The notes beneath the pieces are model-generated. The model was not told where the DNA came from. It did no database searches and saw only the letters and a list, made by a program, of their open reading frames with translations. This document shows positions 11,383 through 42,954 of a DNA stretch of 64,000 nt, in pieces. The stretch lies in the IMG/VR virus record IMGVR_UViG_3300001765_000038, positions 1 through 64,000 of that record; one strand, given 5' to 3'. The number at the start of each line of letters is the position of its first letter. The first letter of the stretch is position 1. The DNA is from a virus (Duplodnaviria > Caudoviricetes). The position numbers and the translations under genes were made by a program.

Positions 11383-11950
11383 CTTTTATCACCATCCATG
11401 TAAATTTAACATCAACAATAGTATTATTCAATTCACGAAGCATTCGTTGAAATTGAGCTTCTTCTTTTGATCCTTGTTGCATACCTTCTAACATTGGTTG
11501 ATACATTGGATCAATATTGAATTTATAATCCATGATCTCAAAATCAATATCATAATACAACCCTAAACGACTTGAACCATCTTCAACCTCTATACAGTAT
11601 TTATTGTGAGATTTACTGAACAATCTCATACCTTCAATAGTAATTGGGCGGCGATGAGTTGGGTCATTCATAAAACAATCATGTCGATGATGTGGCACAA
11701 CTACTTCAATTACTGCATTGGGTTTACAAACACGATATAGTTCTTTAAGAAAGATAAAGAAATCGGGATCACCCAAATGCTCGAACAAATGATGAGAAAT
11801 GACAGCATCAACAGAATTATCTTCCCAAGGCCAATCTGGTTTACTTAAATCAACAACAAAATCTGGATCACACTCCTTATCAAAATCAACATTTAAATAT
11901 CCATCAAAATGTTTGTAACCTGCTCCAAGATGTAGTTTAATTCCACTCAT
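11375..11950 (-). CDS. Class I SAM-dependent methyltransferase (Methyltransf_11-like)
   Basis: KLHLGAG..FDGYLNVD, DL...WPWEDNSVD, HLFEHL, ELYRVCKP, DPTH; start taken at the second Met (ORF track starts at 11956). Confidence 0.85.
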   Translation of the reverse strand: MSGIKLHLGAGYKHFDGYLNVDFDKECDPDFVVDLSKPDWPWEDNSVDAVISHHLFEHLGDPDFFIFLKELYRVCKPNAVIEVVVPHHRHDCFMNDPTHRRPITIEGMRLFSKSHNKYCIEVEDGSSRLGLYYDIDFEIMDYKFNIDPMYQPMLEGMQQGSKEEAQFQRMLRELNNTIVDVKFTWMVIKDE

Positions 11951-17526: not shown

Positions 17527-17725
17527 ATGAAGATATTTTTTCGAGAACATCTTTAAGTGTTAATTTAATAACACGCACTTCATCTTCTAATTTTCTAATT
17601 TTCTCTTTCATAGATTCTTGTTCTATTTTTCCAGCATTCAAACGATTGCGTTCTTTAATATAGTTTTCATATTCTTGTTTATCAGAATTTATAACTGCAG
17701 TTTTAGTTTTTACTAGATTGTTCAT
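17522..17725 (-). CDS. Small coiled-coil protein of the type that follows the large DUF4815 virion protein in T4-like phages
   Basis: AVINSDKQEYENYIKERN followed by a heptad coiled coil; gene position. Confidence 0.65.
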   Translation of the reverse strand: MNNLVKTKTAVINSDKQEYENYIKERNRLNAGKIEQESMKEKIRKLEDEVRVIKLTLKDVLEKISSL

Positions 17726-20700
17726 TATAACACCATTATCACTCTAAGATTTTTAATTCGCGGAACCGCAGATGTATTAGTAGATCTTAGATCTACTTTA
17801 ATTTCTAATTTATCATATATGTCGATAGAATTGCTAAAATTAAAGTCAAATCTCTTTTCAATGAATTCATTGCTGTTGTTTGTCACTTTAACGTTAATAC
17901 CTCGTGAATCATTATAAATTGTATTACCAAGTGTCCAAACTGCATTATTAAATTCATAATCACCACGACATTTTTTATAATAGATTCTTATCTCAGATCC
18001 ATATGGTAAGTTATAATCATAAAACAATATGAAGCCATCAACGGGAGTTTGCAAAGATATAACTTGCGAACAATAACTTGCTGAATTAGTATTATAATTT
18101 ATTGAAGCTGAATCAGTATAAAAATCATAACTGTAAGCTACAATATCGGCCGTAATTGATTCATAAATCATGTCACTATCATTTCTCACATATAATATTA
18201 AATCAGTACCAGTATTTACCTTATTTATTATTAACATCTGAATACCATCATTAGAAACAGTATTTTCAAATTCTAATGTTTGTCCAACTTTTGCTTTATG
18301 ATAAATTTCAGCTGCTGAAGTACAAACAATAGCGCTTGCTGTAGAATTAAATAGTAATGATACCGAGCCAGAATATAAAATATTTTTATCAATAGGTTTG
18401 TTAGTATCAAAATCATAATTATCTATCTTATTTGAAATCGCATTTACTGAGAAAGTAGAAAGATCTATAATAGGTGATAAATCTGGGTTCTTAGAATATA
18501 ACAAGGCATTTAATGTAAATGATTTTTTACCAGTCAATAATCTATCTTCATTTTCTTTTGATAACACCCAACCAGGTTCTGTTAAATAAGCACTTCTTTC
18601 AAGTTCAATTTTTTGATATGTATTTTCTTTAACTCTAGAATCATTTGTTTTTGCAAACGAATAATCAATGTAAGTTCCAAGTAATACAAAATCATTGCCA
18701 TCTAAATATAATACATCATATTTCTTATTACCCATCATATACAATGAGTCATCACCACTCCAAGTTGAAGCAGTTGCAGCTGCAATATTAATAATGAATG
18801 AATCTGTAGTTGCGTCATTTACTGCAAACAGCATATTGTCTGGATTGGCAAAACTAGACGAAACAGCTTGTAGAGATGTATTTTCATTAGCATTAAATTT
18901 AACATAATCACCGTTAATCAAACCGTGACTTTCATGTAATACTCTTGCTTGTGTGAGACCGACAGATGTTTTTATAGGATCAATAATCATTTTATCAGCA
19001 TTAAAATAGTTATTGTTTAGATATACTGTTCCTGCACCGCTTATATCAAATTGAGCTTTATACAGAGTAAAGCATAAATCTTGCATTTGATATGCAGTCC
19101 ATGATGATCCATTCTGTGATTGCAACATAGTACCTAAAGTGGGCTGTTTAACACACATGTTTCCGTATATATCTAATTCTCCTAATTCTGAAGTCCATAC
19201 AGTAACTCCATTATCCATCACATAATTAGAACCTATCACTATACAATATTCTGTTTCATTTTTCAAAAATACAGGTGCATTGAATGTGAATGTAGTTGAT
19301 ACTAATTTAGTGGAAGAATAATTTAATTCATCTGCATTTTTAACAACCGTGCTCATTGGAATTGCTTGAATAGCTGGATAACCATTGACCATTTCACGTA
19401 GTTCAACAAACACTGGATAAGCATTCTGTTTCACATTGTAAAAATATAAATCTACTTTTGTGACAAAAATACCAGCTCCAAACGAATCAACCACAAATGA
19501 TTGTGCTAATGGATCACCACCGCCACCACCGTCACCACCGCCACCACCGCCATCAATAAAATCAGCTAATATAGTTGAAATACTACTGCGAGCTGTAGCA
19601 GTTGTTGGAGGTGGTGATCCAAATATAGACGGTGCAACAGTAGGTGCTGGTGTTGGTGCAGGAGTAAAAGCAGAAGTTGTGATACTTGAAACATTAGTAG
19701 ACGATGTTGTCCAATTTTCTTGTACAACTTGAGACTGTTGAAGTTCAACATCAACTATATTTGCATTTTTAACTGATAATATGTCTGTCTGTGTAGTAAA
19801 TGATAATCCATGAGGATCGTAAGTAGCAACAGCACTTGTAACTGAATTGACTATATTCTTGTTATCACGAATCTGAATATTAACTATTTGTGCTAAAAAT
19901 TTTATATTGTCGTTATTTGGAAAAACCAATACACCGTATACTGATCCAGAAGGACTTGATACAAATGCGTCTTTAGTAATACTTGAAATTGTGACATATG
20001 CTTTAGACGTAAGACCAGTAACAGTTTCACCTTCTAAAAATGTTCCTTGTATATTTGTCACTTTAAGATTGTCATATTCATCTGTCAATAGAATAGCAGT
20101 TGCTTTAGATGTAGATCCAACAACAATCTCACCTCTATCTAGAATATCATAACTATTTGGACCATATTGACGATATTCTAGATTAGTTTGAGAAATAGGT
20201 GAATTCAAATAATTTAAAAATTCGCCTACCTTACCAGTATATGCTAATGAATAAGCAGTATCAACATAATCAGTAACTTCAATATTATCAATATATGCAT
20301 ATAGTTGATAATTGGGTAAAAAGTTTTGACCATAAAACACGATTACTTTTTGTCTTGCATAAACATCCCAAACGGTGTTTTGAATTCCAGTAATTCTACC
20401 TAATTCATCTTGTCTTTCTTGAGCAACTGTTTCTGTACCAAGTTTCAACTGTGATACATTATTAATTCCATCAATTGTAGTTACTGTAGTTGTAGTACGA
20501 GTGGTTGTTGTTGTGGTACCTGCAATTGTTGTTGATGAAGATACACTATTTGTTGAACTTGAATCTATACTTGTCTTTGATGATGCTATTACTCTAGCAG
20601 TATCTTTCCAAGCACCCCAAACAGTTTTGAGAATTCCTAATCTTTGTGCTGCTTGTTGTAACGAATTATAATTACCATCATTCAATTGATTAACATCTGG

Positions 20701-23700
20701 TAATGATTCACTATCAATCCATGTATCATAAGAAGGAAATATATTTAATGATCCAGTACGTTTCTTAAGAGTTGAAAATGGAGTGACACTGTTAGGTGTT
20801 GTTGCAATTTTGTTTGATGATACCACAGCATCAATAAATGGTAATGTTACTAGATCACCTGTTACTTGATAATGTCTTGCTTTTCTCAATTCTGGTGAAT
20901 CTTCTATTAAGTTTATATTAGCAACAGAATATGTTGGTCGGCATTCTTGTGTGTCGTAATCGATTGCAGCTTTAAAACCTGGATCAGTCACGTTTGCTCT
21001 TGAATGATCAACAAATGTATCAATAAAGAATCCAGATTTAAATCTAGATAAACCATTTTCATCATAAACAGTAGATGACTCAACTGAATTTGCGGCAGAC
21101 ATTGATAAACTCAAAACAGCATTGTTTAACCGCTTATCAATAGAACCAATAGCCCGCATGGTATAACCATTCATTCTTATTTCATCTAATTTTATATTTT
21201 TCGTAACGTCGATGATATATGGATCTAATGATATTTTAGCTATCGATGTATAAGTGGGCAGTGCTGTTGGAACTATAGGCATGTCACTCGCATTACCGTT
21301 AGTAACTCGTAATGATCCAATGTCTCCCACTTGAAGAATATCATATCTTGGTAGATAATATTGATATGCTACTTCAATATCAAAATTTGATGATAGCGGT
21401 TCTGTTACAGAAGCATTATTAAGTGTACCATCAGTAACAACTGTTGATTTTGTAGAACTAAATGATGTGTTCTTATTGAGAACATAATTTCCATTTCCAT
21501 CAATGCCCACATCAGAACTTTTAATTTGTAATGCTAATACATGATTATCATATCCTGATATATCACTCCAAACGCTCAATGTATCTAATTGAATTGGGCT
21601 AGATCTACTTATTGTTGAATTAATACCTAATTGACCCGCCCAGTTACTTCCCCATACCCACATTGTACCATTATTTTTGATTGCATATACAGAACCCCAA
21701 TTAGTACCAATTTTATTCCAATCATTTAATGAACCAACTTGACATGGAGAAGATTGTGTAATAAGGTTGTTGCGACCTAATTGACCATATTCATTTCTAC
21801 CCCACGCCCATAATGTATTATCATTTTTGATTGCAAATACTGAATTCCAATCTTGTGTAACTGATTTCCAATCACATAAACTTCCAATCTGTACAGGAAC
21901 AGATTTGCTTGTTGGAAATTCTGTACTAAATTTCCCATCATTATCAAAACCCCAACCCCATAAAGTACCATTTGTTTTAATAGCAAAAAATGAAGATGCA
22001 TATGCATTTTCACTTAATGTTCCCCAATCACTCATTGTACCTACTTGTGTTGGTGATGAACGATTATTAGTATCTCCTAATCCCAAATCACCGTACACAT
22101 TATATCCACAAATCCATAAAGTGTTATCATCTTTAATTGATGCCCATGATGCATAACTACAAGTAATTTTATTCCAATCACTCATTGTACCTACTTGTGT
22201 TGGTGATGAAAGATCTATATTTGATCCTTGACCTAATGATCCATATCCATCATATCCCCAAGTCCACAATGTTCCGTTAGTTCTTTTTGCTAATGCAAAC
22301 AGATAACCGGCCGTAACTTTCTCCCAATTTCTTAAATTTTCGTTTGGATCAGAATCTAAACTTGCCATATCGCATGTTAAATTTACTGCTGTGCCGAGCA
22401 TTGTGGGAGAAGATAAATTATAATCAGTTGTTCCGTGTCCTAACTTTCCATGTGAATCATAACCCCATGACCATAATGACCCATCTTTTTTAATTGCATA
22501 TGATGCAGCACCGCCCGCAACAATTTGTGACCAATCTGCTAATGATCCTATCTGTACAGGTGATGATTTGAAACTTATTGAATTATCACCAAGTTGGCCA
22601 TGTATATTATAACCCCAAGCATGTAAAGGTGATGTTGTTGCTTTTCTAATATAATTTGTTGAACTTGATGAATCATTAGCAATATCTTCTGGCGGTGTAA
22701 CACCATCTGCACTAATTTCTAATGCTAAACTAGCAGCAACTGGTCTAAAATCTAAATAATCACTAATCAATTTGCCTTTATACACAGGCATTTTTTCTAA
22801 TGGAAGATTATATGAATCAACTGACATATAATCACCATCTGAATGTTCATAATAATTGAAAGTTATTTGAATAGGTGCAGCTGGTTCAAAACTGTTAATA
22901 CTTGTTATAATACTGTTGTCATAATAGAAATCATTTATATTCGGTGACAGACGGTATTTGTCTGTAATATCTAATTCATTAAGCGCTGAATATTCAACAA
23001 AAGTATTTCTAAAATTTAAATTAAATTTTGCACCACCTGATTCTCTTATAGAAAGAATCGAAATCACATCAGGTGTACCCAAATCAATTTCTGATTTATG
23101 CACACTGTTTAATGTATTAAAATAAACTGTTTTTATTTTTTTAGTTTTTGTTTTTTCTTTTACTGATTGTTTGCTCTTTTTGACTGGTACAATTGCTCTA
23201 TACATTGTATCTGGGTTCAGATTTTTAAATGTAACTTGTTTAAAATCTGAACTAAGAATCATATTATCACTTGAAGGAACTGGATTAGCAGTAAGTGAGT
23301 TATCAATCAATGCAATATGTGGTAAATCAGTACCTTGTAAATATAATGCATATCCATCCATGAATGCATTTTGAATATCAATCAATGATGTAATTTGAGC
23401 AGGACTTGAACGATCAACAATATCACCTAAACCCAATTGCCCAGTATCATTATAACCACAAGTCCAAACTGTATTATCATTTTTAATAAGCATTGATGAA
23501 TATGTGCTAGCGTCTGCAGACGCCCAATCACTTAAAAATCCTACTTGGGTTGGCGCTGAACGATGAACAATATCATCTATTCCTAACTGACCATAATCAT
23601 TTCTTCCCCACGCCCATGCAGTTCCATCAGTTTTTGTTACTATCGTCTGACCATAACCACAAGCAACTTTATTCCAATTACTTAATGTTCCTACTTGTGT

Positions 23701-24792
23701 AGGGCTTGAGCGTTCTATAATATCTTTTAGTCCTAACTGACCATATAAATTATAGCCCCAAGTCCATAACGTATTATTGGTTTTAACTGCTACAGAAAAA
23801 TCATGAGTTGCTATTTGACGCCAATTACTTAATGTTCCTACTTGTGTGGGAACAGATACACTAAAAGCTGAACTTAACCCAAGTTGACCGTTCCATCCAT
23901 TACCCCACATCCATAAAGTACCATTAGATTTAATCGCACTAACTGTATCCCACCAACAACTTATTTTTGCGCCAGACCAATTATTTAATATACCAACTTG
24001 TGTTGGTGATGAATGATCAACATCTAAAGTACCGAGACCAAGACAGCCATTGTTATCATCACCAGAAGTCCATAAAGTGCCATCAGTTCTAATAGCAAAA
24101 AATCCATGCCAGCTAGTTGTAACATACGTCCAATCACTTAATGTTCCCACTTGTGTAGGTGATGATCTATCAGTATCGCCAGCATCACCCAAACCCAAAT
24201 GCCCTTTAAAATTATAACCACAATTCCACATCGTACCGTCGGATTTAATTATTGAATTTACATATCCGCAAGAAACACTTGTCCATTTATCTTGACCAAA
24301 CATAATCATCACTGGGGCAGATCTATCATTAAGATCACCAAGACCTAATGATCCATAATATTGATTATATCCACATGTAAATAACCCAGGTGCACCTGAA
24401 ACTGGTTGATAACTTTTTCCATCTTTATTATCAACTTTTCCTACTAAATATAAATTAGGATTTGATGAAGGAAAATTCTCGTCTATATTATGTAAAACAA
24501 TAGATAATTCACCAGTTGCGGAACTTTTAAGTTGATATGAACGATTGACACAATAAGAAATTTGTGTTTGATCATTATCGTCCTTTAGAGTTTTAACATA
24601 TGGATGTTGTAAATCTCGTAAAAAATTAGAATCACCTTGTAACTTTACATCCTTTTTCCAAAAATATGGAACATTAGGTAAAACTGAGTTTGCAGTATTA
24701 GTATCATTTATTTTGGTAGTTGGAATAATAGCATTTCCATAAGAATCAATACCAAACTTTTTTACTTTATAATAATCAACTTTTTTTGCCAT
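17725..24792 (-). CDS. C-terminal part of the second DUF4815/VrlC-like virion protein, with two inserted RCC1-like 7-blade propellers
   Basis: Colinear with the latter ~70% of 26611..33072 (YLDFRP, YYLPRYD, ENGLSRFKSGFFID, DPLAQSF, VPRIKNLRVI); RCC1-like repeats at about 23330-24392 and 21525-22630. Confidence 0.85.
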   Translation of the reverse strand: MAKKVDYYKVKKFGIDSYGNAIIPTTKINDTNTANSVLPNVPYFWKKDVKLQGDSNFLRDLQHPYVKTLKDDNDQTQISYCVNRSYQLKSSATGELSIVLHNIDENFPSSNPNLYLVGKVDNKDGKSYQPVSGAPGLFTCGYNQYYGSLGLGDLNDRSAPVMIMFGQDKWTSVSCGYVNSIIKSDGTMWNCGYNFKGHLGLGDAGDTDRSSPTQVGTLSDWTYVTTSWHGFFAIRTDGTLWTSGDDNNGCLGLGTLDVDHSSPTQVGILNNWSGAKISCWWDTVSAIKSNGTLWMWGNGWNGQLGLSSAFSVSVPTQVGTLSNWRQIATHDFSVAVKTNNTLWTWGYNLYGQLGLKDIIERSSPTQVGTLSNWNKVACGYGQTIVTKTDGTAWAWGRNDYGQLGIDDIVHRSAPTQVGFLSDWASADASTYSSMLIKNDNTVWTCGYNDTGQLGLGDIVDRSSPAQITSLIDIQNAFMDGYALYLQGTDLPHIALIDNSLTANPVPSSDNMILSSDFKQVTFKNLNPDTMYRAIVPVKKSKQSVKEKTKTKKIKTVYFNTLNSVHKSEIDLGTPDVISILSIRESGGAKFNLNFRNTFVEYSALNELDITDKYRLSPNINDFYYDNSIITSINSFEPAAPIQITFNYYEHSDGDYMSVDSYNLPLEKMPVYKGKLISDYLDFRPVAASLALEISADGVTPPEDIANDSSSSTNYIRKATTSPLHAWGYNIHGQLGDNSISFKSSPVQIGSLADWSQIVAGGAASYAIKKDGSLWSWGYDSHGKLGHGTTDYNLSSPTMLGTAVNLTCDMASLDSDPNENLRNWEKVTAGYLFALAKRTNGTLWTWGYDGYGSLGQGSNIDLSSPTQVGTMSDWNKITCSYASWASIKDDNTLWICGYNVYGDLGLGDTNNRSSPTQVGTMSDWGTLSENAYASSFFAIKTNGTLWGWGFDNDGKFSTEFPTSKSVPVQIGSLCDWKSVTQDWNSVFAIKNDNTLWAWGRNEYGQLGRNNLITQSSPCQVGSLNDWNKIGTNWGSVYAIKNNGTMWVWGSNWAGQLGINSTISRSSPIQLDTLSVWSDISGYDNHVLALQIKSSDVGIDGNGNYVLNKNTSFSSTKSTVVTDGTLNNASVTEPLSSNFDIEVAYQYYLPRYDILQVGDIGSLRVTNGNASDMPIVPTALPTYTSIAKISLDPYIIDVTKNIKLDEIRMNGYTMRAIGSIDKRLNNAVLSLSMSAANSVESSTVYDENGLSRFKSGFFIDTFVDHSRANVTDPGFKAAIDYDTQECRPTYSVANINLIEDSPELRKARHYQVTGDLVTLPFIDAVVSSNKIATTPNSVTPFSTLKKRTGSLNIFPSYDTWIDSESLPDVNQLNDGNYNSLQQAAQRLGILKTVWGAWKDTARVIASSKTSIDSSSTNSVSSSTTIAGTTTTTTRTTTTVTTIDGINNVSQLKLGTETVAQERQDELGRITGIQNTVWDVYARQKVIVFYGQNFLPNYQLYAYIDNIEVTDYVDTAYSLAYTGKVGEFLNYLNSPISQTNLEYRQYGPNSYDILDRGEIVVGSTSKATAILLTDEYDNLKVTNIQGTFLEGETVTGLTSKAYVTISSITKDAFVSSPSGSVYGVLVFPNNDNIKFLAQIVNIQIRDNKNIVNSVTSAVATYDPHGLSFTTQTDILSVKNANIVDVELQQSQVVQENWTTSSTNVSSITTSAFTPAPTPAPTVAPSIFGSPPPTTATARSSISTILADFIDGGGGGGDGGGGGDPLAQSFVVDSFGAGIFVTKVDLYFYNVKQNAYPVFVELREMVNGYPAIQAIPMSTVVKNADELNYSSTKLVSTTFTFNAPVFLKNETEYCIVIGSNYVMDNGVTVWTSELGELDIYGNMCVKQPTLGTMLQSQNGSSWTAYQMQDLCFTLYKAQFDISGAGTVYLNNNYFNADKMIIDPIKTSVGLTQARVLHESHGLINGDYVKFNANENTSLQAVSSSFANPDNMLFAVNDATTDSFIINIAAATASTWSGDDSLYMMGNKKYDVLYLDGNDFVLLGTYIDYSFAKTNDSRVKENTYQKIELERSAYLTEPGWVLSKENEDRLLTGKKSFTLNALLYSKNPDLSPIIDLSTFSVNAISNKIDNYDFDTNKPIDKNILYSGSVSLLFNSTASAIVCTSAAEIYHKAKVGQTLEFENTVSNDGIQMLIINKVNTGTDLILYVRNDSDMIYESITADIVAYSYDFYTDSASINYNTNSASYCSQVISLQTPVDGFILFYDYNLPYGSEIRIYYKKCRGDYEFNNAVWTLGNTIYNDSRGINVKVTNNSNEFIEKRFDFNFSNSIDIYDKLEIKVDLRSTNTSAVPRIKNLRVIMVL

Positions 24793-24802
24793 GGTTTTTA
24801 AC

Positions 24803-26602
24803 CTATATTAAATCTGTATATACAACGAATGGATCGCCTGGGCTTAATTCAGCATTTAAATCGTTTCCTTCACCTGTAAATGCAGCAGTATACGAGGTAG
24901 GACCAGAACCAAAATTATATTGCCATAATCCACCTGGCAATTGAGTAACATTTCCTAAAATTTCTGCGTAAAATGTACCATCTGGTGCTCTAATTGATCT
25001 AGCATCTTTGTTCAAATTATAATTTTGATCAATCTTTAAATCAAAGATATATGCTTTATATGTTGCAACTGAAGATGAGACATATAATGTTGTTGGGTCA
25101 ATTTCTCCAAACGTTTCGGTATTATATTCAAAATTTCTAATTTTACAAACACCTATCGGTAAATCATTATAACTATATATGACATGATTAATTAGTGCTC
25201 TATTATTTTCATCTATATTTGTTAAAACTGGCAACCCTCTAACCCCAGTAACGATCAAATATTGACCAACTGGGCTTGTTAAAAAGTAATTATTAGATTG
25301 TTTGAAATCTCTAGTTTTATCTATTGGTGCTAATTTAAAGCCATTGGTTACATCAACTTCTTTACCCTTGATATACATTTTGCCGCCAGAAACTTTAACT
25401 AAAGCGACCTTTGATCTATATAATTCATCTTCTAATGTTAAATTATCTGTATGAGGATAATATCCATTATTGTATTTTGGATTAGAAACACAAACCCAAT
25501 TAATTGATCCATCTAAAATTTCATTTACTTTTATGACTGGAATTGTAGATCCAGAAACACCATCATTGAGTGCTACTAAATTATACGTTATATCATTTTG
25601 GGTGATAGTAATAACATCATCCATTAAATATGGAGTTGCTGCTAACCAATCTCCTCTATTGTTATTTCTATATTCAATGAACTCATATTTTATAGGTTTT
25701 AAAATATAATCACCAGATTCGTCATATGTGCGTCTAGATAAAATAGTACCTAATTGGCCAAGTTCAGTTTTATCTACTATAGTTTGAACTTCACCATCTT
25801 TAACACTTAATAGTGGAATAAAATTTGTATTAGTTAAATCTGAAAAATAATCATATTTAGTCAATACTAAATCTATATGCATTCTATCAGCACCGACCGC
25901 AACTGGATTGTTAAATCCTGCTGAATTATCATATAAAGAAGAATCATCTGATACTGTAACTATTGATGTAACTACATCAAATCCTACAACATAAGAAGGT
26001 CTTTTATCAAATTTATTGAGCGATATAGTTTGTTTTCTATTTTGAACAAAGTATCCGTTTATATAATAAACACCACTTATAACTGTTGCTAAAGAACTAT
26101 TTGATTCAAAATCATCTACATTTTTAATTGAAACATATCTACTTTTATCTTCAATATATAATAATTCTTCTGTTCCATATGTTCTTACTAATTCTCCTTC
26201 TGGAGTGGTACCACCTGACCGATAAAACACATATAACATAGGTGGATCAGTATCAGTAGCTTTATCAGCATGCACAACATATGCATTTATTCCAGTTATT
26301 GAACTTATTATATTTTTACCAATAAATTCTTCTATGTAATTAGATACTGCTAACCCATTATAAAATTCATTCAATTTTATACCGAATGTATTGGGTTCAT
26401 ATGATACGTTTCCAGGAAATACCATTGCTCCATTACTAAAAGTAAAATCAGCAACTCTTTTTAATTGCTCTTGAATACCCGATTGCAACTGAGTAAGTTC
26501 TCGAGACTGGAGTGCAGTACTTGGATTGAATATTATTTTATGATAATTTTTAGATACATCATAATCATCATAATATGGAGCTTCTGAATAAATTTTAGTC
26601 AT
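24803..26602 (-). CDS. N-terminal part of the second DUF4815/VrlC-like virion protein
   Basis: APYYDDYD..KNYHKIIF, LQSRELTQLQS, GVYYINGYFV, RRTYDESGDY; colinear with the first ~580 aa of 26611..33072. Confidence 0.85.
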   Translation of the reverse strand: MTKIYSEAPYYDDYDVSKNYHKIIFNPSTALQSRELTQLQSGIQEQLKRVADFTFSNGAMVFPGNVSYEPNTFGIKLNEFYNGLAVSNYIEEFIGKNIISSITGINAYVVHADKATDTDPPMLYVFYRSGGTTPEGELVRTYGTEELLYIEDKSRYVSIKNVDDFESNSSLATVISGVYYINGYFVQNRKQTISLNKFDKRPSYVVGFDVVTSIVTVSDDSSLYDNSAGFNNPVAVGADRMHIDLVLTKYDYFSDLTNTNFIPLLSVKDGEVQTIVDKTELGQLGTILSRRTYDESGDYILKPIKYEFIEYRNNNRGDWLAATPYLMDDVITITQNDITYNLVALNDGVSGSTIPVIKVNEILDGSINWVCVSNPKYNNGYYPHTDNLTLEDELYRSKVALVKVSGGKMYIKGKEVDVTNGFKLAPIDKTRDFKQSNNYFLTSPVGQYLIVTGVRGLPVLTNIDENNRALINHVIYSYNDLPIGVCKIRNFEYNTETFGEIDPTTLYVSSSVATYKAYIFDLKIDQNYNLNKDARSIRAPDGTFYAEILGNVTQLPGGLWQYNFGSGPTSYTAAFTGEGNDLNAELSPGDPFVVYTDLI

Positions 26603-26610
26603 TAAAAACC

Positions 26611-29600
26611 TTAAGCAAGAGCAATTAATCTAAAGTTTTTGATCCTAGGCACTTTGGATGTGTTATTAGATCTAAACACAACTTTAACAGTAATTTGATC
26701 ATATTGTACTTCTGTATTATATTTATTGACAATATTATTCATATCATATTCATGTTCTATAAATGTATCATATTTTTCTACATCTTGATATACATCATCT
26801 TCTAATTTGATCCATGGTAATTTCTCAATGTTTGTATAATCAGACTTTATAGCAATTTTATAATAAACATCAATGAATGCATCTTTAGGTTTATTGTAAT
26901 CAAAAAACAATCTAAATCCTGTTGATGGTTGAGCTAATTCAACTATACTTGTTACATAATTTGATAAATTACTTGAACCATCTGAAGCAATAAAATCTAC
27001 ATAATGATCATACACCTGAATTGATACAGGAACTGATCCTAATGGAGTAGGCACTGATGCTGTTGGTAAAATACCATCAACTGTAATAGTTAATGTTGTC
27101 GTTCCATCTGTATAAACTTTAGTAATCATCATTGGACTTATTGATCCAACGGTAGTATTATTTAAAAGTAAATATCTACCCACCTTCAATGTATTGAAAT
27201 TATCAGCTAAATCACCAACAATACCACCTGTAATAGTGATTGTATCATCTAATAATGTTATTGTACTTCCATAATAACCAGAAGTAGTCAAATTAATGAT
27301 ATATCTTTTATCTACGTCTAAATTAATAGTTGGTGAAGGATTATTAATCTTATTTCCTATTGTATAAACAGCATATGAAGGAAGATCTATAACTGGAGAA
27401 AGATTTTCATTTTTACTTAAAATGTATGCTTTAAGTTTAAATGAACTTTCTTTTGTAAAGATGTCTTCATTTTCTTTAGATAAAATAAATTGTGGATTTT
27501 CAAATGTCACATTTTGATTTATTTGAATTGGTATTTCATCTGGTTGAACTTCAATTGAGTTATTTACTAATGCACTGCTATTGAAGGTGTATTGAATATG
27601 TGTTCCTGGCAATACAAAATCTGCACCATTAAAATACATTGTATCCATGCGTCTATCTGAAGTTGCAATGCATTCTTTGTTTCCATAATGACCAGATGTT
27701 ACTGCTGCTACTGGTAATGTGATTGTATAAGTATCCAACTCAACATTTGATACAGTAAATTTACTATTAAGTTCTGTTTGTGAAGGATGTGTCAAATTAG
27801 TTATAACATTGCTAAATGTTACACTTGCACCATTTATGAAACCGTGATTTTGATGAGTTACTCTTACTATTTTTGAACCAGAAGTAAGTTTGAAAGGATT
27901 GATACCTAACATTGACGTTTCAGTATTATTATTCTTAAATGTAAACACACCTGTATTAGCAGTATCAAATTTAGCTTTATATAAAGTAAAACACATGTCA
28001 GTCAATTGATCTGTATCCCATGTGCTGTTATTTTGTGATCTAAAGAATGATCCAGCAGCAGGTTGTTTAGTGATAATTTGACCATCTAAACCAGCCTCAC
28101 CCATTTTAGCAATCCACACCTTAGAATCACTTTGATCTGATCCCATAACGATACAATATTCAACACCATCTTTAAGATATACAGGAGATGGGAATGTGAA
28201 TTTAGATGGAGCTAAAGCTCTACTAGATCCTCTAAGTTCTCTTGGCATTTTTGTTAATGCACCAAACGGTACAATCATTGGACCTGGATATCCATTAACC
28301 ATTTCACGAATTTGCAAGAATATAGATGCTGTAGAATTAAGATCAACTGTATGAAAATAAACATCAACAGCTGTCACAAATATACCACCAACATCACTAA
28401 CTTGGAATGATTGTGCGATTGGATCTAAACCTATAGGTGTGAATGGTCGATAAGCAATAAATAGTGCTGGTAATCCACAACCGTAACAACCTGTATTAGT
28501 TCTTGGCGCTTCTGTTGGAGCAGGTGCACGAGTCGGAGCAGGAGTTACATATACAATTTTTGTAATAACTCTAGGTGGCGTCGGCGCTGGTGTTGGAGGT
28601 GGAGGTGGAGGTGGTATAGCAACATCTGAATATGTTGAAGATTGAGAATTTGTTGTTACAGCACCCACTATCTTCGACCAATTTTCAGTAGTTTGTTTTG
28701 TATCTGAAACATCTCTTGAAACAATCGTACCATTTCTCACAGTCATAATTGTTGTTTGTTTAACTTGAATTATACCATGACCGTCATATTTTGCTTCGCT
28801 ATTAGTAGTAATAGCGTCTTGTGTGTCGGCATCACGCAACGAAATAGTTAAAATGCCTGCGGGTACTCTAACAGTACTGTTATTTGGTATAGTTACAATA
28901 CCATAAAAATTACCGGCGCTATTTGTCTTAATTGTTGATTCTGTGACAATTTTATCAAAAACAAGTGTAGCTTTAGAACTTTGTCCAACGATAGTTTCAC
29001 CTTTAATAAAGGTACCCTTGATGTTAATAATTTTCAAAACATCTTCAGTTGCTGTTACAAATTGTCTTTCTTCACAAATTGTAATTGCTGTAGCTCCAGA
29101 AGTAGTACCCTTGATGACTTCTCCTCTTTCTAATATATCATATGAATGTGAACCATATTGACGGGCGGTTAAGTCTTGATGATCAATGTTTGAACTAATA
29201 TAATCTAAAAATGTTCCGTTCTTAGATGTATAATATAATGTAGTTGCAGCGCTAGCATAAGAAGTTAAAGGAGTATTTTCGATGAACACACTTAAGCGCA
29301 CATTTGGCATCATCTTCTTGCTATACAATACCACACACTTTTCACGCATCCAAGGCGACCAGAGTTCATCAATAACGTTAGTTACTTGACCTACTGTATC
29401 CCAACGTTCTTGCATTTCTGAATAAACACCTGTTCTGCTCCAATTTAATTGATCTGTACCAGTCTGTGTAGTAGTCAATGTAGTAGCAGTAGTGGTAGTA
29501 GTGGTAGTTCTATTGACAACACCACCGATGTTTTGAGTCGATGAAGCAACTCCTGCCACATTTGAAGATGTTGAAGAAGATAAATTTGTATTAAGTGTTG

Positions 29601-32600
29601 TTCTTGCAGTTGTCTGCCAAGAATTCCAAACAGTACCTAAAATACCAGTTGATTGTGCTATCGTCTGAACAGAATTAAAATTACCTTCAGACTTAGTTGT
29701 AACTGACGGAACAGTAGTGGTGTCAACCCATGTATCACCTACTGGGAAAATATTTAAATCACCATGCATTGATCTAATATAAACATAAGGAGTGATACTT
29801 TCACCACTACTAGCTATATTCTGTTTAATAGCAACAACTTCAGTATATGGTAATGTAACCAAATCACCAGTTACTTGATAACCTTTTGATGCTCTCGAAC
29901 TTGTTAAGCTTTCAATCAATTTAACACTATCAGCATAAAATGTAGGACGACATTCTAAATTACCAGCATCAATAGCACATCTATAGCTTGGATTAGCAAC
30001 ATCACCAACACCATGATCTTTAAATTGATCAACAATAAATCCATTTTTATAACGATTCAATCCATTCTCATCTTTGATTTGCATGTTGCTTGTAGCAATT
30101 TCTAAAGATGTTAAAGAAATATAATATTCAGCGTTTTTAACTCTGCTATCTATTTTACCAATGTCTTTCATTGTGTAACGTTTTAAATCTGCAACTTCAA
30201 TATTGATGTTGTTGGAATTTACTTTAACAGTATATGGTGCTAAACTTGCATATGCCAATATAACATTATCATCATTTGGTAATGGTGCTATTGGTGTGTC
30301 ACTTGGAGTTCCTTGTTCTACTCTAAATGAACCTGTTGTATCCAATTGAATAATGTCTCTTCTAGGAAGATAATATGAATAACTTAAATTGATTGGATAT
30401 TTTGATGATAATGGTTCTGTTTGATACAATGAATAATCATATGGATCATATGGTCTAAAATCTAAATAATCACCAATACTTGCATTATTATATACTGGAA
30501 GTTCTGAATAAGTAAATTCATTATATGAATCAATACTATAATAATCACCAGCACCAGTAGTATCGAATTTTTCAAAAATGATTCTAATTGGGCCACTTGG
30601 AATAAATCCTTGAACTGGTGATATTGTCGAATAACTTAATGTGCTAGCTGAGCTATTAGAAACACAACGATAATTATCTGTTACATCAATATTAAAAGGT
30701 GTTGTTACTGTAACCACAGCATCAGGTGTATTAAAATCAAATTTATCAGTACATTGATAAACGCCTATTAATTTAGAACCACCCGACCATGTAGCAAGAA
30801 TATTATTTGAACCTATTACATCATTGAGTTTCGTATAATCAGTATGTGCTATGCTTCTAATTTTTTGCTTTTCTTTAGCTGCTTGTTTTTCTTTTCTTAT
30901 GATCGCTTTAAGATAATATGAACCTGTAGCTAATCCAGTAAGAGTAAGTTCTGTAGAATCTGGTGATTTAGAAAAAGTAACACCATCATTTATACTTAAC
31001 GGATAATTCAAACCAGATGAATTAACAAATAGATAATTTCCAACAACTAAATCAGCAAATGTTTCAAATGGGCGACTTAATGTTATTGTTACAGGAGAAC
31101 CAACACTTACAATGCTAAACATACGATTCACATAATAACTAATATCAATAGATAAATCATCTGCTCCTCTTACTGATCTTACAAATGAGTGATCTAATTT
31201 TTTCAATAAATCAACTGTTCCATGTAACACTGTTCTTTTTACATATATTGAATACCACTCACCGTTATTAGGAATAAATCCGGATCCAAGATCACCAATT
31301 GTTAGTGTTGATGAGTTGAGTACAGTTGAAACACGATATGTTCTATTATCAACACTGATATAATCACCAGAAACTAGTTCTGATGTGAATAATGTACTTT
31401 GACCACTTAATGTAGTACTACCGTATGATTGTACTGAACCGCTTAAGAGTACGTCATCTCCTACCACATAATATAATGCTGTTCCACCATTTTCTTGTAA
31501 AAATCTAACATCTGATATGCCATAACCATCATTCATCATAATTGATACAACATACAATCTATATTTACAATCATGGTAACCAATAATACCACTCTCATAT
31601 TCAATGTTTCTAACATAACATTGTCCAATTAAACCAGCTTCGCCAAGTAATTCAAGATATGGATAAAAGTTTGGTGTTATACCCTGGAAATTTGGAAGAT
31701 TTTGAGCACCATTTACTATAAAATATTGTCCCATATCACTATTGATATTGACATTTTCTATATTTTTATATGTTCTTGCCTTATCGAAGAAAGCAATTTT
31801 ATATCCATTAACTGCTATTTCATAACCTTTGATATATGCTTTTCCGCTATTAATCTTATACACTGCTAATGCAGCATAATCTAATTGTGTTTCGATAGTC
31901 TGTTCATCAGTTGGAGCTTCATAACCAAAATTAAAATTAGGTTTTCTAGTTGTTTCCCATGTTATATTGCCATCACTACTTGGTGTGAAGAATTCATCTG
32001 TTGTTGGTGCTGTTGCACCAGATGTTCCACTGTTTTTAGCAGTAAAAAATACATCATTATAACTAACAATATCTCCTTCTAAATAAACTCTATTTGTAAC
32101 CCATTCACCGCGATCATTATTTCTAAAATCGATTAAATCAATTTTAAAAGGTTCAACTACATAATCACCAGATTCATCGTATGTTCTTCTTGCGAGAACT
32201 TTTTCTAAATCACCTAAACGAGTAGAATTGACTTTAAATTGTTGAGTGCCGTTTTTAACATGTAATAAATCAATAAATTGATCTGATGTAGTATTGTCTA
32301 TTTGATCTTCTAAAAGAATATTTTTAGTAAGTTCAAGTTGAATTTGATATCTATCAGCGCCAGCTGCACCATAATTGGATGAATCAATTGCAATATCTTT
32401 TAATGATGGATCGATAGCAGATGTTACAATATTTTCGACAAAATTTAAACCAACTCTATAAGATGGATAATTACTATATTTGTCAAGTGAAATTGTCTGA
32501 GATAAATTTTGAACAAAGAAACCATTAATATAATACACACCTTCAGTAATAGAAGCTAAAGAACCATAGCCCTTATATGTACTTTCATCGATTATTTTAA

Positions 32601-33072
32601 CTTGAACTTCTGTATCATCTTCAAGATATAATGTTTCATTTTTATTGAATGTTTTAAAGAAATTACCGTCTTGATCTATACCGCCTGCAGTATACATAAT
32701 AAAAATAGTGGGGTAATCATTATCAGTAGATTGTTCAACATGAATCACTGTAGCTTTTACTTGAGTATCAGTACCCACTATTCTTTTAGTTAATAATGAA
32801 TCGATTATCGTATCAGTAGATATATTATTATGAATGAGCTTAAGTTTTATATAATTGGCATTGTTGATAAAATTAATATCACCAGGCACAACCATTGAAC
32901 CATTTTTAAAAATATAATCAGCATTTTGTTTTAATTGATGCTGAAGAATAGATTGAATTTGCGTTAATTCTCTAGCCTGAATAGGGCGGCCGGGAACAAA
33001 TAAAATCTTGTGATAACCTTTTGAAGGATCAAAATCATCATAATACGGCTCGACGTTTAAACTGATAGGCAT
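26611..33072 (-). CDS. Large DUF4815/VrlC-like virion structural protein
   Basis: PYYDDFDPSKGYHKILF, ARELTQIQS, RRTYDESGDY, RYKNGFIVDQF, DPIAQSF, VPRIKNFRLIALA; position after gp8 as in environmental T4-like phages. Confidence 0.88.
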   Translation of the reverse strand: MPISLNVEPYYDDFDPSKGYHKILFVPGRPIQARELTQIQSILQHQLKQNADYIFKNGSMVVPGDINFINNANYIKLKLIHNNISTDTIIDSLLTKRIVGTDTQVKATVIHVEQSTDNDYPTIFIMYTAGGIDQDGNFFKTFNKNETLYLEDDTEVQVKIIDESTYKGYGSLASITEGVYYINGFFVQNLSQTISLDKYSNYPSYRVGLNFVENIVTSAIDPSLKDIAIDSSNYGAAGADRYQIQLELTKNILLEDQIDNTTSDQFIDLLHVKNGTQQFKVNSTRLGDLEKVLARRTYDESGDYVVEPFKIDLIDFRNNDRGEWVTNRVYLEGDIVSYNDVFFTAKNSGTSGATAPTTDEFFTPSSDGNITWETTRKPNFNFGYEAPTDEQTIETQLDYAALAVYKINSGKAYIKGYEIAVNGYKIAFFDKARTYKNIENVNINSDMGQYFIVNGAQNLPNFQGITPNFYPYLELLGEAGLIGQCYVRNIEYESGIIGYHDCKYRLYVVSIMMNDGYGISDVRFLQENGGTALYYVVGDDVLLSGSVQSYGSTTLSGQSTLFTSELVSGDYISVDNRTYRVSTVLNSSTLTIGDLGSGFIPNNGEWYSIYVKRTVLHGTVDLLKKLDHSFVRSVRGADDLSIDISYYVNRMFSIVSVGSPVTITLSRPFETFADLVVGNYLFVNSSGLNYPLSINDGVTFSKSPDSTELTLTGLATGSYYLKAIIRKEKQAAKEKQKIRSIAHTDYTKLNDVIGSNNILATWSGGSKLIGVYQCTDKFDFNTPDAVVTVTTPFNIDVTDNYRCVSNSSASTLSYSTISPVQGFIPSGPIRIIFEKFDTTGAGDYYSIDSYNEFTYSELPVYNNASIGDYLDFRPYDPYDYSLYQTEPLSSKYPINLSYSYYLPRRDIIQLDTTGSFRVEQGTPSDTPIAPLPNDDNVILAYASLAPYTVKVNSNNINIEVADLKRYTMKDIGKIDSRVKNAEYYISLTSLEIATSNMQIKDENGLNRYKNGFIVDQFKDHGVGDVANPSYRCAIDAGNLECRPTFYADSVKLIESLTSSRASKGYQVTGDLVTLPYTEVVAIKQNIASSGESITPYVYIRSMHGDLNIFPVGDTWVDTTTVPSVTTKSEGNFNSVQTIAQSTGILGTVWNSWQTTARTTLNTNLSSSTSSNVAGVASSTQNIGGVVNRTTTTTTTATTLTTTQTGTDQLNWSRTGVYSEMQERWDTVGQVTNVIDELWSPWMREKCVVLYSKKMMPNVRLSVFIENTPLTSYASAATTLYYTSKNGTFLDYISSNIDHQDLTARQYGSHSYDILERGEVIKGTTSGATAITICEERQFVTATEDVLKIINIKGTFIKGETIVGQSSKATLVFDKIVTESTIKTNSAGNFYGIVTIPNNSTVRVPAGILTISLRDADTQDAITTNSEAKYDGHGIIQVKQTTIMTVRNGTIVSRDVSDTKQTTENWSKIVGAVTTNSQSSTYSDVAIPPPPPPPTPAPTPPRVITKIVYVTPAPTRAPAPTEAPRTNTGCYGCGLPALFIAYRPFTPIGLDPIAQSFQVSDVGGIFVTAVDVYFHTVDLNSTASIFLQIREMVNGYPGPMIVPFGALTKMPRELRGSSRALAPSKFTFPSPVYLKDGVEYCIVMGSDQSDSKVWIAKMGEAGLDGQIITKQPAAGSFFRSQNNSTWDTDQLTDMCFTLYKAKFDTANTGVFTFKNNNTETSMLGINPFKLTSGSKIVRVTHQNHGFINGASVTFSNVITNLTHPSQTELNSKFTVSNVELDTYTITLPVAAVTSGHYGNKECIATSDRRMDTMYFNGADFVLPGTHIQYTFNSSALVNNSIEVQPDEIPIQINQNVTFENPQFILSKENEDIFTKESSFKLKAYILSKNENLSPVIDLPSYAVYTIGNKINNPSPTINLDVDKRYIINLTTSGYYGSTITLLDDTITITGGIVGDLADNFNTLKVGRYLLLNNTTVGSISPMMITKVYTDGTTTLTITVDGILPTASVPTPLGSVPVSIQVYDHYVDFIASDGSSNLSNYVTSIVELAQPSTGFRLFFDYNKPKDAFIDVYYKIAIKSDYTNIEKLPWIKLEDDVYQDVEKYDTFIEHEYDMNNIVNKYNTEVQYDQITVKVVFRSNNTSKVPRIKNFRLIALA

Positions 33073-33084
33073 ATATGTTCCCTT

Positions 33085-34551: not shown

Positions 34552-34576
34552 GGTTTTTCCTCATTTATTGTTTGAA

Positions 34577-34584
34577 TATTTATC
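34577..34584 (-). promoter_or_regulatory. Late promoter variant GATAAATA upstream of gp8
   Basis: Plus-strand tatttatc in the 41-nt gap, 26 nt upstream of the ATG; GAGG RBS. Confidence 0.55.
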
Positions 34585-34592
34585 TTATATTT

Positions 34593-42568: not shown

Positions 42569-42954
42569 CTAACTCTTTCAAATTTAAGTGTTAATTGTTG
42601 AGTTACATCTGAACCTATTACATGAAAGTAAAAGTCAATTGCAATTTCATTATAGTCTGGATTATCACGAATAATCAAATTATCTATATACACTCTTTGA
42701 TCATAATAAGCTAATTGATTTCTTATTTTTTTCAATAGAGTGATGCTCGTCAATGGTGTCAAGTTTTCAAATATCAAACCCGGAATACTAATACCGAAGT
42801 TCGGATCGAATCTCTTTTCAAAATTATTCGTTAAGAATAAAGTCATGAGAGCTTGCTTTACTGAATCAAGATCGTACTTAAGAATAACATCGTCTGTTGA
42901 TGGATGTTTTTTAAATGTGAGACTTAGATCGGAGTAAGTATATGTTGTGGCCAT
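42565..42954 (-). CDS. gp25: Baseplate wedge protein (gp25)
   Basis: YSDLSLTFKKHP, SVKQALMTLFLT..FEKRFDPNFG, YDQRV. Confidence 0.93.
   Translation of the reverse strand: MATTYTYSDLSLTFKKHPSTDDVILKYDLDSVKQALMTLFLTNNFEKRFDPNFGISIPGLIFENLTPLTSITLLKKIRNQLAYYDQRVYIDNLIIRDNPDYNEIAIDFYFHVIGSDVTQQLTLKFERVR

What the first reader, a model, noticed from the sequence alone, without database searches (positions are those of the whole stretch)
21525..24392. The same RCC1-like propeller cassette is inserted twice into a second virion protein
Relative to its insert-free paralogue (26611..33072), the 2355-aa ORF carries two 7-blade propellers at defined loops. One lies after NLYLVGK..., and one lies between YLDFRP and TEPLSS, motifs that are only about 10 residues apart in the paralogue. 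The blades share the KTDGTLWxWG / RSSPTQVGTLSDW idiom of the 5017-aa protein. The window therefore encodes 15 propellers across two unrelated host proteins, consistent with a mobile 'plug-in' binding module used to decorate the baseplate.
Basis: partly seen in the sequence, partly recalled or inferred. Interest (0 to 1): 0.75.

Follow-up and report, generated by a model that had tools for sequence, protein, structure and literature searches.

The report
Propellers grafted into a phage baseplate protein
A T4-like aquatic phage has grafted two complete seven-bladed RCC1-type beta-propellers into two loops of one of its two large outer baseplate proteins, probably as extra host-binding modules; one graft is shared with a related phage, so these are old, kept features and not recent copies of the phage's other propellers.

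Summary
The 2355-aa ORF (17725-24792, minus strand) carries two 7-blade RCC1-like propellers. Insert 1 is aa 122-486. Insert 2 is aa 685-1125.

Additions:
- The host protein is a VrlC/DUF4815 protein, the family of the tripod protein of the Staphylococcus phage 812 baseplate.
- The counterpart of the insert-free paralogue is two ORFs together: the upstream 599-aa ORF plus the 2355-aa ORF.
- A related phage record (G001) has the same split. It also has a propeller at exactly the second site, there cut into two ORFs, and nothing at the first site. Site 2 is therefore old and shared, and site 1 is specific to this lineage.
- About 250 other VrlC genes examined carry no RCC1.

Correction: this is not one cassette inserted twice. 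The two propellers are 39% identical to each other and 42-44% identical to the best units of the 5017-aa protein. They reach 44-49% identity to propellers of unrelated metagenome proteins. Nucleotide identity never exceeds about 70%. Trees neither show nor reject a common origin within the genome.

The looser plug-in idea survives. All 15 propellers share one blade phase. The two related phages also place very different numbers of propellers in different virion proteins.

The binding role is inferred, not shown. The scan had already noted the split and the giant protein on this same genome.

The parts
24803..26602 (-). P0005, 599 aa: N-terminal piece of the second VrlC/DUF4815 paralogue (the gene is split here)
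   Evidence: 38% identity to P0002 residues 9-570. DUF4815 profile positions 3-54 and 64-191 are matched. The same split is present in relative G001, whose 586-aa piece is 47% identical.
17725..24792 (-). P0001, 2355 aa: C-terminal piece of the second VrlC paralogue, carrying both propellers
   Evidence: It starts 10 nt after the stop of P0005, in another frame.
24430..24792 (-). Host segment aa 1-121, equivalent to P0002 about 582-686
   Evidence: Weak but collinear alignment. Relative R_mid658 residues 29-120 are 39% identical to P0001 residues 35-126.
23335..24429 (-). Insert 1 (aa 122-486): 7-bladed RCC1-like propeller, specific to this phage
   Evidence: Pfam WD40_RLD matches aa 137-470. 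Absent at this site in relative G001.
22741..23334 (-). Host middle segment aa 487-684, ending in YLDFRP
   Evidence: 34% identity to P0002 703-874.
21418..22740 (-). Insert 2 (aa 685-1125): a linker of about 35 aa, the 7-bladed RCC1-like propeller (aa 719-1105), and a linker of about 20 aa. Shared with relative G001.
   Evidence: The AF2 model has pLDDT above 90 over aa 719-1105. Foldseek matches UVR8 and HERC2 RLD at TMt 0.81-0.88. The relative has a propeller between CLDFRP and PEPLSS.
17725..21417 (-). Host C-terminal part aa 1126-2355 (the rest of VrlC) plus the stop codon
   Evidence: 36% identity to P0002 885-2152. DUF4815 profile positions 355-567 are matched.
26611..33072 (-). P0002, 2153 aa: first VrlC paralogue, unsplit and insert-free
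   Evidence: Matches the 1152-aa DUF4815 chain of the phage 812 baseplate at E 1.3e-37.
43347..58400 (-). P0004, 5017 aa: the other propeller-bearing protein (91 blades, about 13 propellers), between gp5 and a PAAR protein

Best explanation
What it is. The window is the baseplate module of a T4-like aquatic myophage. The gene order is gp48, gp53, a tail protein, gp5, the RCC1 giant, PAAR, gp25, gp6, a gp7-like giant, gp8, VrlC-1 and VrlC-2.

VrlC/DUF4815 proteins are relatives of the tripod protein of the double-layered baseplate of phage 812. There the tripods are trimeric outer complexes that carry carbohydrate-binding domains.

This phage has two tandem VrlC paralogues. The second one:
- is split into a 599-aa and a 2355-aa polypeptide;
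- has taken up two complete 7-bladed RCC1-like propellers as domain insertions in two length-variable loops.

How it most likely works (inferred). Each propeller is a self-contained, closed domain tied to the host loop by flexible linkers. It can therefore project from the assembled complex without disturbing the host fold. It would add protein- or glycan-binding surfaces to the outer baseplate, alongside the 13 propellers next to the tail spike.

History (shown by comparison). The split and the site-2 propeller predate the divergence from relative G001. The site-1 propeller was added later in this lineage. None of these events is recent.
For: Anatomy and insertion points.

Baseplate context: Pfam and PHROGs hits for gp5, gp6, gp8, gp48, gp53 and the sheath; PAAR and gp25 ORFs.

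VrlC is tripod-like:
- P0002 matches the 1152-aa DUF4815 chain of phage 812 baseplate entries at E 1.3e-37.
- The host model matches 9euj_G with Z 8.8, and 9eui_Q with Foldseek E 5.7e-8.
- Entries 9EUJ and 9EUK hold the inner tripod.
- The tripod domains, including CBM-like ones, are described in PMC13433997.
- VrlC is a core baseplate protein of pelagimyophages and cyanomyophages (PMC7029224).

Loops:
- The host model has pLDDT below 50 at residues 133-136, six residues beyond site 1, and at 320-324, inside the site-2 loop.
- Loop lengths in homologues are 9-48 aa at site 1 and 9-41 aa at site 2.

Complete propeller: pLDDT above 90 over aa 719-1105, with flanks below 50; TMt 0.81-0.88 to UVR8 and HERC2 RLD.

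Conservation:
- Relative G001 has the same split and a propeller at the same site 2.
- Its propeller best matches propeller 2 here, at 142 bits against at most 99 for the other 11 window units (propeller 1 and ten units of the giant).

Not an assembly artefact: the Logan contig is identical.

Rarity:
- none of the 120 best VrlC homologues carries an RCC1 Pfam domain;
- none of the 80 IMG/VR VrlC loci of the first set holds RCC1 blades;
- of the 53 loci of the second set only L086, which is G001 itself, does.

Precedent for RCC1 proteins in phage particles: GAP32 GAP_001 was found by mass spectrometry (PMC5259590).
Against: - No experiment and no ligand. Binding is inferred from the fold family, the position in the virion module and analogy with the tripod's CBM domains.
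- The equation of the PDB chain with the tripod protein rests on which entries hold the chain and on domain descriptions, not on a stated accession.
- The match to the tripod was tested on the paralogue P0002. It reaches P0001 only through paralogy.
- Exposure in the assembled trimer and baseplate was not modelled. Only a monomer fragment of the paralogue and the isolated propeller were folded, and the hybrid was not.
- Propeller 1 was not folded.
- Whether the two polypeptides really assemble into one complex is unknown.
Confidence: 0.7

Rival explanations
1. One reading: one mobile propeller cassette moves between the 5017-aa gene and this gene, and was copied into the two loops.
For: - Same idiom and same blade phase in all 15 propellers.
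- Mean blade identity between P0001 and P0004 is 0.422, as high as within P0004 (0.432) and above an unrelated RCC1 giant (0.385).
- The maximum-likelihood tree places propeller 2 among the giant's propellers.
- AU tests do not reject one clade of all 12 window units, p 0.47.
Against: - The two inserts are 39% identical to each other.
- The best unit of the giant scores 224 bits for propeller 1 and 232 for propeller 2. Outside proteins score 279 and 272.
- Nucleotide identity is at most about 70%, and no long identical tract exists.
- Propeller 1 groups with outside units P0215 and P0208, with bootstrap 96 and 88.
- Propeller 1 and propeller 2 as sisters costs 62 log-likelihood units, AU p 0.09.
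- Support for propeller 2 inside the giant's group is only 45-65.
- The site-2 propeller already existed in the common ancestor with G001.
Confidence: 0.12
2. The propellers are structural only. They act as spacers, struts or a shield that sets baseplate geometry or hides the particle, and they have no ligand of their own.
For: - The propellers are rigid closed domains.
- Their number varies greatly between relatives without an obvious pattern.
- The relative's propeller is strongly diverged and is even split between two ORFs.
Against: - RCC1-like propellers with a known function in the solved set act as interaction platforms, for example UVR8, HERC2 RLD and RCC1.
- The host family carries receptor-binding domains.
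- VrlC-2 evolves faster than its neighbours, as host-range proteins do. It is 37-42% identical to G001, against 54-61% for gp5, gp6 and gp8.
Confidence: 0.15
3. The inserts and the split are artefacts of metagenome assembly, or a decaying gene.
For: - The source is a metagenome-derived record.
- The repeat-rich region ended the Logan contig at window 22181.
- The 3' junction of insert 2 has no second assembly.
Against: - A second assembly is identical over 13.4 kb, including the split, insert 1 and the 5' junction of insert 2.
- The frame stays open for 2355 codons.
- All full blades score 64-83 bits.
- The relative has the same split and the same site-2 insert.
Confidence: 0.03

Closest known systems
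Tripod protein of Staphylococcus phage 812 (Kayvirus) baseplate; 1152-aa DUF4815 chain in PDB 9EUF, 9EUJ, 9EUK, 9TIG and others (PMC13433997)
   Same: - Same family (DUF4815).
- The paralogue P0002 aligns in four collinear blocks, E 1.3e-37.
- The host model matches the chain at Z 8.8.
- Same gene position, directly after the gp8-like gene.
- It is an outer baseplate component with sugar-binding domains.
   Different: - The proteins here are about twice as long.
- They are duplicated in tandem.
- One copy is split into two ORFs and carries two RCC1 propellers. Of the domains the paper lists for the 812 tripod, none is a propeller.
- The host is aquatic and T4-like, not a Herelleviridae phage.
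VrlC proteins of T4-like cyanophages and pelagimyophages (e.g. P-SSM4, HTVC008M; PMC7029224)
   Same: - 27-29% identity over the C-terminal half.
- A core gene next to gp8 and upstream of the host-recognition cluster.
   Different: - None of the 120 best homologues carries RCC1, and none of the 133 IMG/VR loci except the one that is G001.
- They are single ORFs.
- They have 9-48 residues at site 1 and 9-41 at site 2.
VrlC-2 of the related phage record G001 (IMGVR_UViG_3300001765_000263)
   Same: - Same split after about 590 aa.
- RCC1 propeller at exactly the same site, between (C/Y)LDFRP and EPLSS.
   Different: - No propeller at site 1.
- Its propeller is more diverged and is itself divided between a 658-aa and a 1323-aa ORF.
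- Most of its about 91 blades lie in five downstream ORFs, not in the gp5.1-position gene.
Stand-alone RCC1/BLIP-II-type proteins of phages: GAP32 GAP_001 (found in virions by mass spectrometry, PMC5259590); Synechococcus phage S-SRM01 gp337 and gp344
   Same: - RCC1-like propellers encoded by phages.
- At least one is a particle component.
- 36% identity to S-SRM01.
   Different: - The S-SRM01 genes are single propellers of about 400 aa encoded as separate genes, not domains inserted into loops of another virion protein.
- GAP_001 is reported as a separate gene. Its size and architecture were not examined here.
Eukaryotic RCC1-like domains (UVR8, HERC2 RLD, RCC1)
   Same: Same 7-bladed fold: TMt 0.81-0.88 and phmmer E down to 4e-42.
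   Different: - About 20-23% identity.
- No reason to expect guanine-nucleotide exchange or UV sensing.
- Here the domain is an insert in a virion protein.

Membership tests
RCC1-like domain / RCC1 repeat (PF25390, PF00415) | Score above Pfam's curated cut-off | tested here: met
   WD40_RLD 394.9 bits (cut-off 150); RCC1 313.7 bits (cut-off 21.7), 13 stretches.
RCC1-like domain / RCC1 repeat (PF25390, PF00415) | Seven tandem repeats of 50-60 residues per domain | tested here: met
   7 + 7 anchors spaced 49-68 residues apart.
RCC1-like domain / RCC1 repeat (PF25390, PF00415) | Closed seven-bladed beta-propeller fold | tested here: met
   Propeller 2 only: AF2 pLDDT above 90 over aa 719-1105; Foldseek TMt 0.81-0.88 to UVR8 and HERC2 RLD over 366-389 columns. 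Propeller 1 was not folded.
RCC1-like domain / RCC1 repeat (PF25390, PF00415) | Nucleotide-exchange or other known activity of named members | not testable with these tools
   No assay is available. The activity is not expected and is not claimed.
VrlC / DUF4815 (PF16075) | Score above Pfam's curated cut-off | tested here: met
   P0001 70.3 bits and P0002 188.3 bits (cut-off 30). The P0005 frame scores 60.8 and 40.6 bits.
VrlC / DUF4815 (PF16075) | Collinear with full-length members over the whole length | tested here: met
   P0005 + P0001 aligns end to end with P0002, P0126 and P0006 once the two inserts are set aside; 37-40% identity over about 2030-2070 columns.
VrlC / DUF4815 (PF16075) | Gene position after the gp8-like baseplate gene | tested here: met
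   The order gp7-like, gp8, VrlC-1, VrlC-2 holds in the window, in L001 and in G001.
Tripod protein of double-layered baseplates (phage 812 gp119) | Sequence and fold relation to the solved chain | tested here: met
   Shown for the paralogue P0002: E 1.3e-37 in four collinear blocks; Z 8.8, rmsd 2.9 A over 119 residues. P0001 was not tested directly. The relation reaches it only through its alignment to P0002 (36-37% identity).
Tripod protein of double-layered baseplates (phage 812 gp119) | Trimer docked on loops of the arm scaffold protein; 12 trimers per baseplate | not testable with these tools
   Needs a particle structure. A gp7-like giant (P0003) and a gp8-like protein are present as possible arm parts.
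   No BLIP-II chain appeared among the 28 PDB sequences at E <= 1e-10. The search was not aimed at it.

The most novel reading that the evidence does not exclude
In this phage lineage the seven-bladed RCC1 propeller is a general-purpose binding module. It can be grafted into loops of quite different virion proteins: the gp5.1-position protein next to the spike, the tripod-like VrlC-2, and proteins of the host-recognition cluster. It can also be multiplied there. Its number and placement would then set host range. The module is so self-contained that it tolerates being encoded across two polypeptides, as in the relative's split propeller.
Probability: 0.3. Interest if true: 0.7.

Novelty: new variant of a known kind. 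Interest (0 to 1): 0.55.

Why it matters
- Outer baseplate proteins decide what a phage sticks to. This is a clear natural case of whole folded domains grafted into two loops of such a protein.
- One graft is kept across two diverged phages. The same module is used in very different numbers and places in their particles.
- It marks two permissive loops in the widespread VrlC/tripod family. One of them also tolerates a gene split in the relative. That is useful for anyone who wants to understand or engineer these proteins.
- It gives a concrete candidate for the function of the thousands of giant RCC1-repeat proteins seen in metagenomes.
- No literature on RCC1 propellers inside baseplate proteins turned up in the held library.

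Tried and rejected
- The search for related loci with P0001 alone found nothing in IMG/VR.
- megablast against the phage collection found nothing.
- Alignments A1, A3 and A4 mixed VrlC rows and propeller rows. MAFFT laid the host rows onto the propeller (checked for A1 and A3), so none of them was sent to structure prediction. Because of this the hybrid (host plus insert) was not folded. The insert-free host region (A5) and propeller 2 (A6) were folded separately.
- The top 150 RCC1-rich representatives contain no VrlC-like region. That list favours proteins with many propellers and could not have shown a two-propeller VrlC.
- The 1323-aa piece of G001 was not among the 120 rows listed, although it fits the length range and its BLASTP score of 947 bits is above the top listed hit. 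The rarity claim is therefore 'not seen in about 250 genes', not 'absent'.
- Literature searches for RCC1 in phages mostly hit strain numbers of the Roscoff Culture Collection.
- Blade-by-blade comparison of the two inserts shows no diagonal of matching blade positions.

Full report
**The observation**

All large ORFs of the window lie on the minus strand. The 2355-aa ORF at 17725-24792 (P0001) contains two runs of seven RCC1-type repeats. The SSPxQVG anchors lie at aa 159-463 and at aa 744-1065, spaced 49-68 residues apart. A blade profile built from them finds the same 7 + 7 units at 64-83 bits for the full blades. Pfam gives WD40_RLD at 394.9 bits and RCC1 at 313.7 bits, plus DUF4815 on residues 1114-1362. 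The finding's coordinates 21525-24392 correspond to aa 135-1089. That span runs from the first blade of propeller 1 to the end of propeller 2 and includes the host segment between them.

**Insertion points**

BLASTP against the 2153-aa paralogue P0002 aligns three stretches:
- P0001 1130-2354 to P0002 885-2152 (36% identity);
- P0001 514-684 to P0002 703-874;
- P0001 20-90, weakly, to P0002 582-656.

A 4-way alignment with the two VrlC genes of a related contig fixes the boundaries (L001). Insert 1 is aa 122-486. It lies between ..NPNLYLVGK and GTDLPHIAL, where the three insert-free sequences have no extra residues. Insert 2 is aa 685-1125. It lies between YLDFRP and (A)SVTEPLSS, where the others have 10-21 residues.

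**The gene is split**

The 599-aa ORF just upstream (24803-26602, P0005) aligns to P0002 residues 9-570 at 38% identity. It also carries the N-terminal part of the DUF4815 profile. The counterpart of P0002 is therefore P0005 plus P0001. The lengths agree: 599 + 2355 - 365 - 441 = 2148 aa, against 2153.

The two ORFs are separated by a TAG stop, 10 nt and an ATG, and they lie in different frames. An independent Logan assembly of run SRR931349 is 100% identical over window 22181-35602. This stretch includes the split, insert 1 and the start of insert 2.

**Context and host family**

The neighbours are gp48, gp53, a tail protein, gp5, the 5017-aa RCC1 protein, a PAAR protein, gp25, gp6, a gp7-like giant, gp8, VrlC-1, VrlC-2, a 727-aa protein and, further on, the sheath.

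tblastn finds the 'VrlC' proteins of T4-like cyanophages and Pelagibacter phages at 27-29% identity. The pelagimyophage paper lists VrlC as a core protein and as part of a two-layered baseplate (PMC7029224).

P0002 matches one solved sequence, a 1152-aa 'DUF4815 domain-containing protein', at E 1.3e-37 in four collinear blocks. That chain belongs to the phage 812 baseplate entries.
- The entries include 9EUJ and 9EUK, which hold the core, the wedge and the inner tripod.
- The paper describes the tripod's leg domain as Cwp84-like.
- The VrlC of Bacillus phage Deep-Blue has a Cwp84-like domain at residues 811-959.
- P0002 1548-1707 aligns to chain residues 790-948.

On this basis I take the chain to be the tripod protein. 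This is an inference.

**Are the sites loops, and is the insert a whole domain?**

An AF2 model of the insert-free region P0002 560-1130 was built from 65 aligned sequences. Its mean pLDDT is 77.9.
- Site 1 (model residues 127/128) lies in a coil just after a strand.
- Site 2 (model residues 315-326) lies in a coil between strands.
- The model's stretches of pLDDT below 50 include 133-136, six residues beyond site 1, and 320-324, inside the site-2 loop.

The model's best structural matches are the phage 812 baseplate chains: Foldseek E 5.7e-8, and Z 8.8 for model 59-405 against chain 254-464. In homologues the loops vary from 9 to 48 residues at site 1 (26 sequences) and from 9 to 41 at site 2 (63 sequences).

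A model of P0001 670-1140 gives a confident domain over aa 719-1105 (pLDDT above 90) with floppy flanks. It superposes on complete seven-bladed RCC1-like domains such as UVR8 and HERC2 at TMt 0.81-0.88.

The hybrid protein itself could not be folded, because the aligner could not open the large gaps.

**A relative settles the history**

A search with P0005 found a 586-aa protein at 47% identity. It lies on an 81.7-kb phage record (L084/L086, handle G001). The gene order there is gp7-like, gp8, VrlC-1 (2127 aa), then three ORFs of 586, 658 and 1323 aa.

| ORF in G001 | Content |
|---|---|
| 586 aa | The N-terminal piece, cut at the same split point as here |
| 658 aa | N segment, no insert at site 1, middle segment ending in CLDFRP, a linker, about six RCC1 blades |
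| 1323 aa | One or two blades, a linker, PEPLSS.., and the rest of VrlC |

The relative thus has a propeller at exactly site 2. That propeller is itself cut between two ORFs, and the second ORF has its own AAGGA ribosome-binding site. There is nothing at site 1.

Its propeller matches propeller 2 here best, at 142 bits, against at most 99 for the other 11 window units (propeller 1 and ten units of the giant).

G001 is closer to the window than L001 is. For gp8 the identity is 54% against 50%. For the VrlC-2 N piece it is 47% against 39%. L001's VrlC-2 is unsplit and insert-free.

The most economical history is this. The split and the site-2 graft arose in the common ancestor of the window phage and G001. 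The site-1 graft came later in this lineage.

**Rarity**

- None of the 120 best VrlC homologues carries an RCC1 domain.
- None of the 80 IMG/VR VrlC loci of the first set holds RCC1 blades within 6 kb of the gene.
- Of the 53 loci of the second set, only L086, which is G001 itself, holds RCC1 blades within 10 kb.

**One cassette, or exchange with the giant protein?**

| Comparison | Identity | Bits |
|---|---|---|
| Propeller 1 vs propeller 2 | 39% | 209 |
| Propeller 1 vs best unit of the 5017-aa protein | 42.7% | 224 |
| Propeller 2 vs best unit of the 5017-aa protein | 41.9% | 232 |
| Propeller 1 vs best outside metagenome unit | 48.8% | 279 |
| Propeller 2 vs best outside metagenome unit | 44% | 272 |
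| Propeller 1 vs G001's downstream RCC1 proteins | 41-51% | up to 234 |
| Propeller 2 vs G001's downstream RCC1 proteins | 39-46% | up to 254 |

Nucleotide identity is at most about 70% between the two genes, and also inside the giant gene.

Mean blade identity:
- 0.422 between the two genes;
- 0.432 within the giant;
- 0.385 to an unrelated RCC1 giant;
- 0.405-0.429 to other outside proteins.

In a tree of 53 propeller units, propeller 1 joins the outside units P0215 and P0208 (bootstrap 96 and 88). Propeller 2 sits among the giant's propellers with weak support (45-65).

AU tests reject none of the groupings tried:
- giant plus propeller 2: p 0.47;
- all 12 window units: p 0.47;
- the two inserts as sisters: p 0.09, at a cost of 62 log-likelihood units;
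- propeller 2 with the relative's propeller: p 0.18.

Recent copying is excluded. An old common origin within the lineage is neither shown nor ruled out.

**What survives of the plug-in idea**

All propellers of both genes begin with the ..W.WG.N..GQLG strands and end after the first strand of the closing blade. The unit is therefore a whole closed propeller in one fixed phase.

The relative carries about 91 blades, distributed quite differently:
- about 10 at the gp5.1 position;
- one propeller in VrlC-2;
- about 81 in five ORFs downstream of the 727-aa homologue.

VrlC-2 is 37-42% identical between the two phages, while gp5, gp6 and gp8 are 54-61% identical. That is the usual pattern for host-range proteins.

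**Function**

Nothing here tests function. I infer display of the propellers as extra binding surfaces on the outer baseplate. The grounds are the host family, the fold family, the flexible linkers and this pattern of variation.

Phage RCC1 proteins are known as separate genes. GAP32 GAP_001 was found in particles by mass spectrometry (PMC5259590). S-SRM01 gp337 and gp344 are annotated as RCC1 proteins. I found no report of RCC1 propellers inserted into a baseplate protein.

**Earlier notes of this scan**

The scan had already recorded, on this same genome, the split as old and conserved, the giant as a gp5.1-position protein with 13 propellers, and the plain and 'armed' tandem copies. My own tests agree with the first and third notes, and partly with the second.

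Noticed in passing
L084:11761-17724 (relative G001): The relative's site-2 propeller is divided between two ORFs. The 658-aa ORF ends after about six blades. The 1323-aa ORF starts 15 nt later, with its own AAGGA ribosome-binding site, and supplies the last one or two blades. If both are made, a propeller would have to close from two polypeptides.
   Followed up: partly
L140:1962-16439 and L139:7607-9935 (relative G001): The relative holds about 81 RCC1 blades in five consecutive ORFs (1802, 603, 460, 1271 and 709 aa) downstream of the homologue of the 727-aa protein. It holds only about 10 blades at the gp5.1 position, where the window phage has 91.
   Followed up: partly
window 24785-24815; L084 about 11755-11765: The split between the 599-aa and 2355-aa ORFs falls inside a small conserved block (..GD.I.V...YRV..). 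It lies at the same place in the relative, where the stop and start codons overlap as TAATG.
   Followed up: yes
window 43051-43344 and 42565-42954: A 97-aa PAAR-like ORF (82% identical to the relative's) and a 129-aa gp25-like ORF lie between the 5017-aa gene and gp6. The giant therefore sits between gp5 and the spike-tip protein.
   Followed up: partly
L141 (Synechococcus phage S-SRM01, record 223664-236731): Two stand-alone RCC1 genes (gp337, gp344) lie among sulfotransferase, glycosyltransferase, TPR and 2OG-oxygenase genes. RCC1 propellers and glycan-modification clusters may travel together.
   Followed up: no
L002:1285-25252: An unrelated metagenome contig has four consecutive RCC1-rich ORFs (4655, 1562, 989 and at least 798 aa) with no VrlC nearby. 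None of six window baseplate and tail proteins tested (gp48, gp53, the 426-aa tail protein, gp5, gp6, the 727-aa protein) matches it.
   Followed up: partly
window 22354-22389 (P0001 aa 802-813): Blade 2 of propeller 2 carries an extra 18-residue loop (..TAVNLTCDMASLDSDPNENL..). Its core, aa 802-813, is the only low-confidence stretch inside the folded domain.
   Followed up: no
window 32014-32106 (P0002 aa 323-353): Weak match to carbohydrate-binding module family 5/12 (E 1.2e-4, below Pfam's cut-off) in the insert-free paralogue.
   Followed up: no
window 19506-19680 (P0001 aa about 1705-1762): A Pro/Thr/Ala-rich linker and a GGGGGDGGGGGD run precede the conserved DPLAQSF block. The paralogue has a much longer proline-rich linker at the same place.
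   Followed up: no
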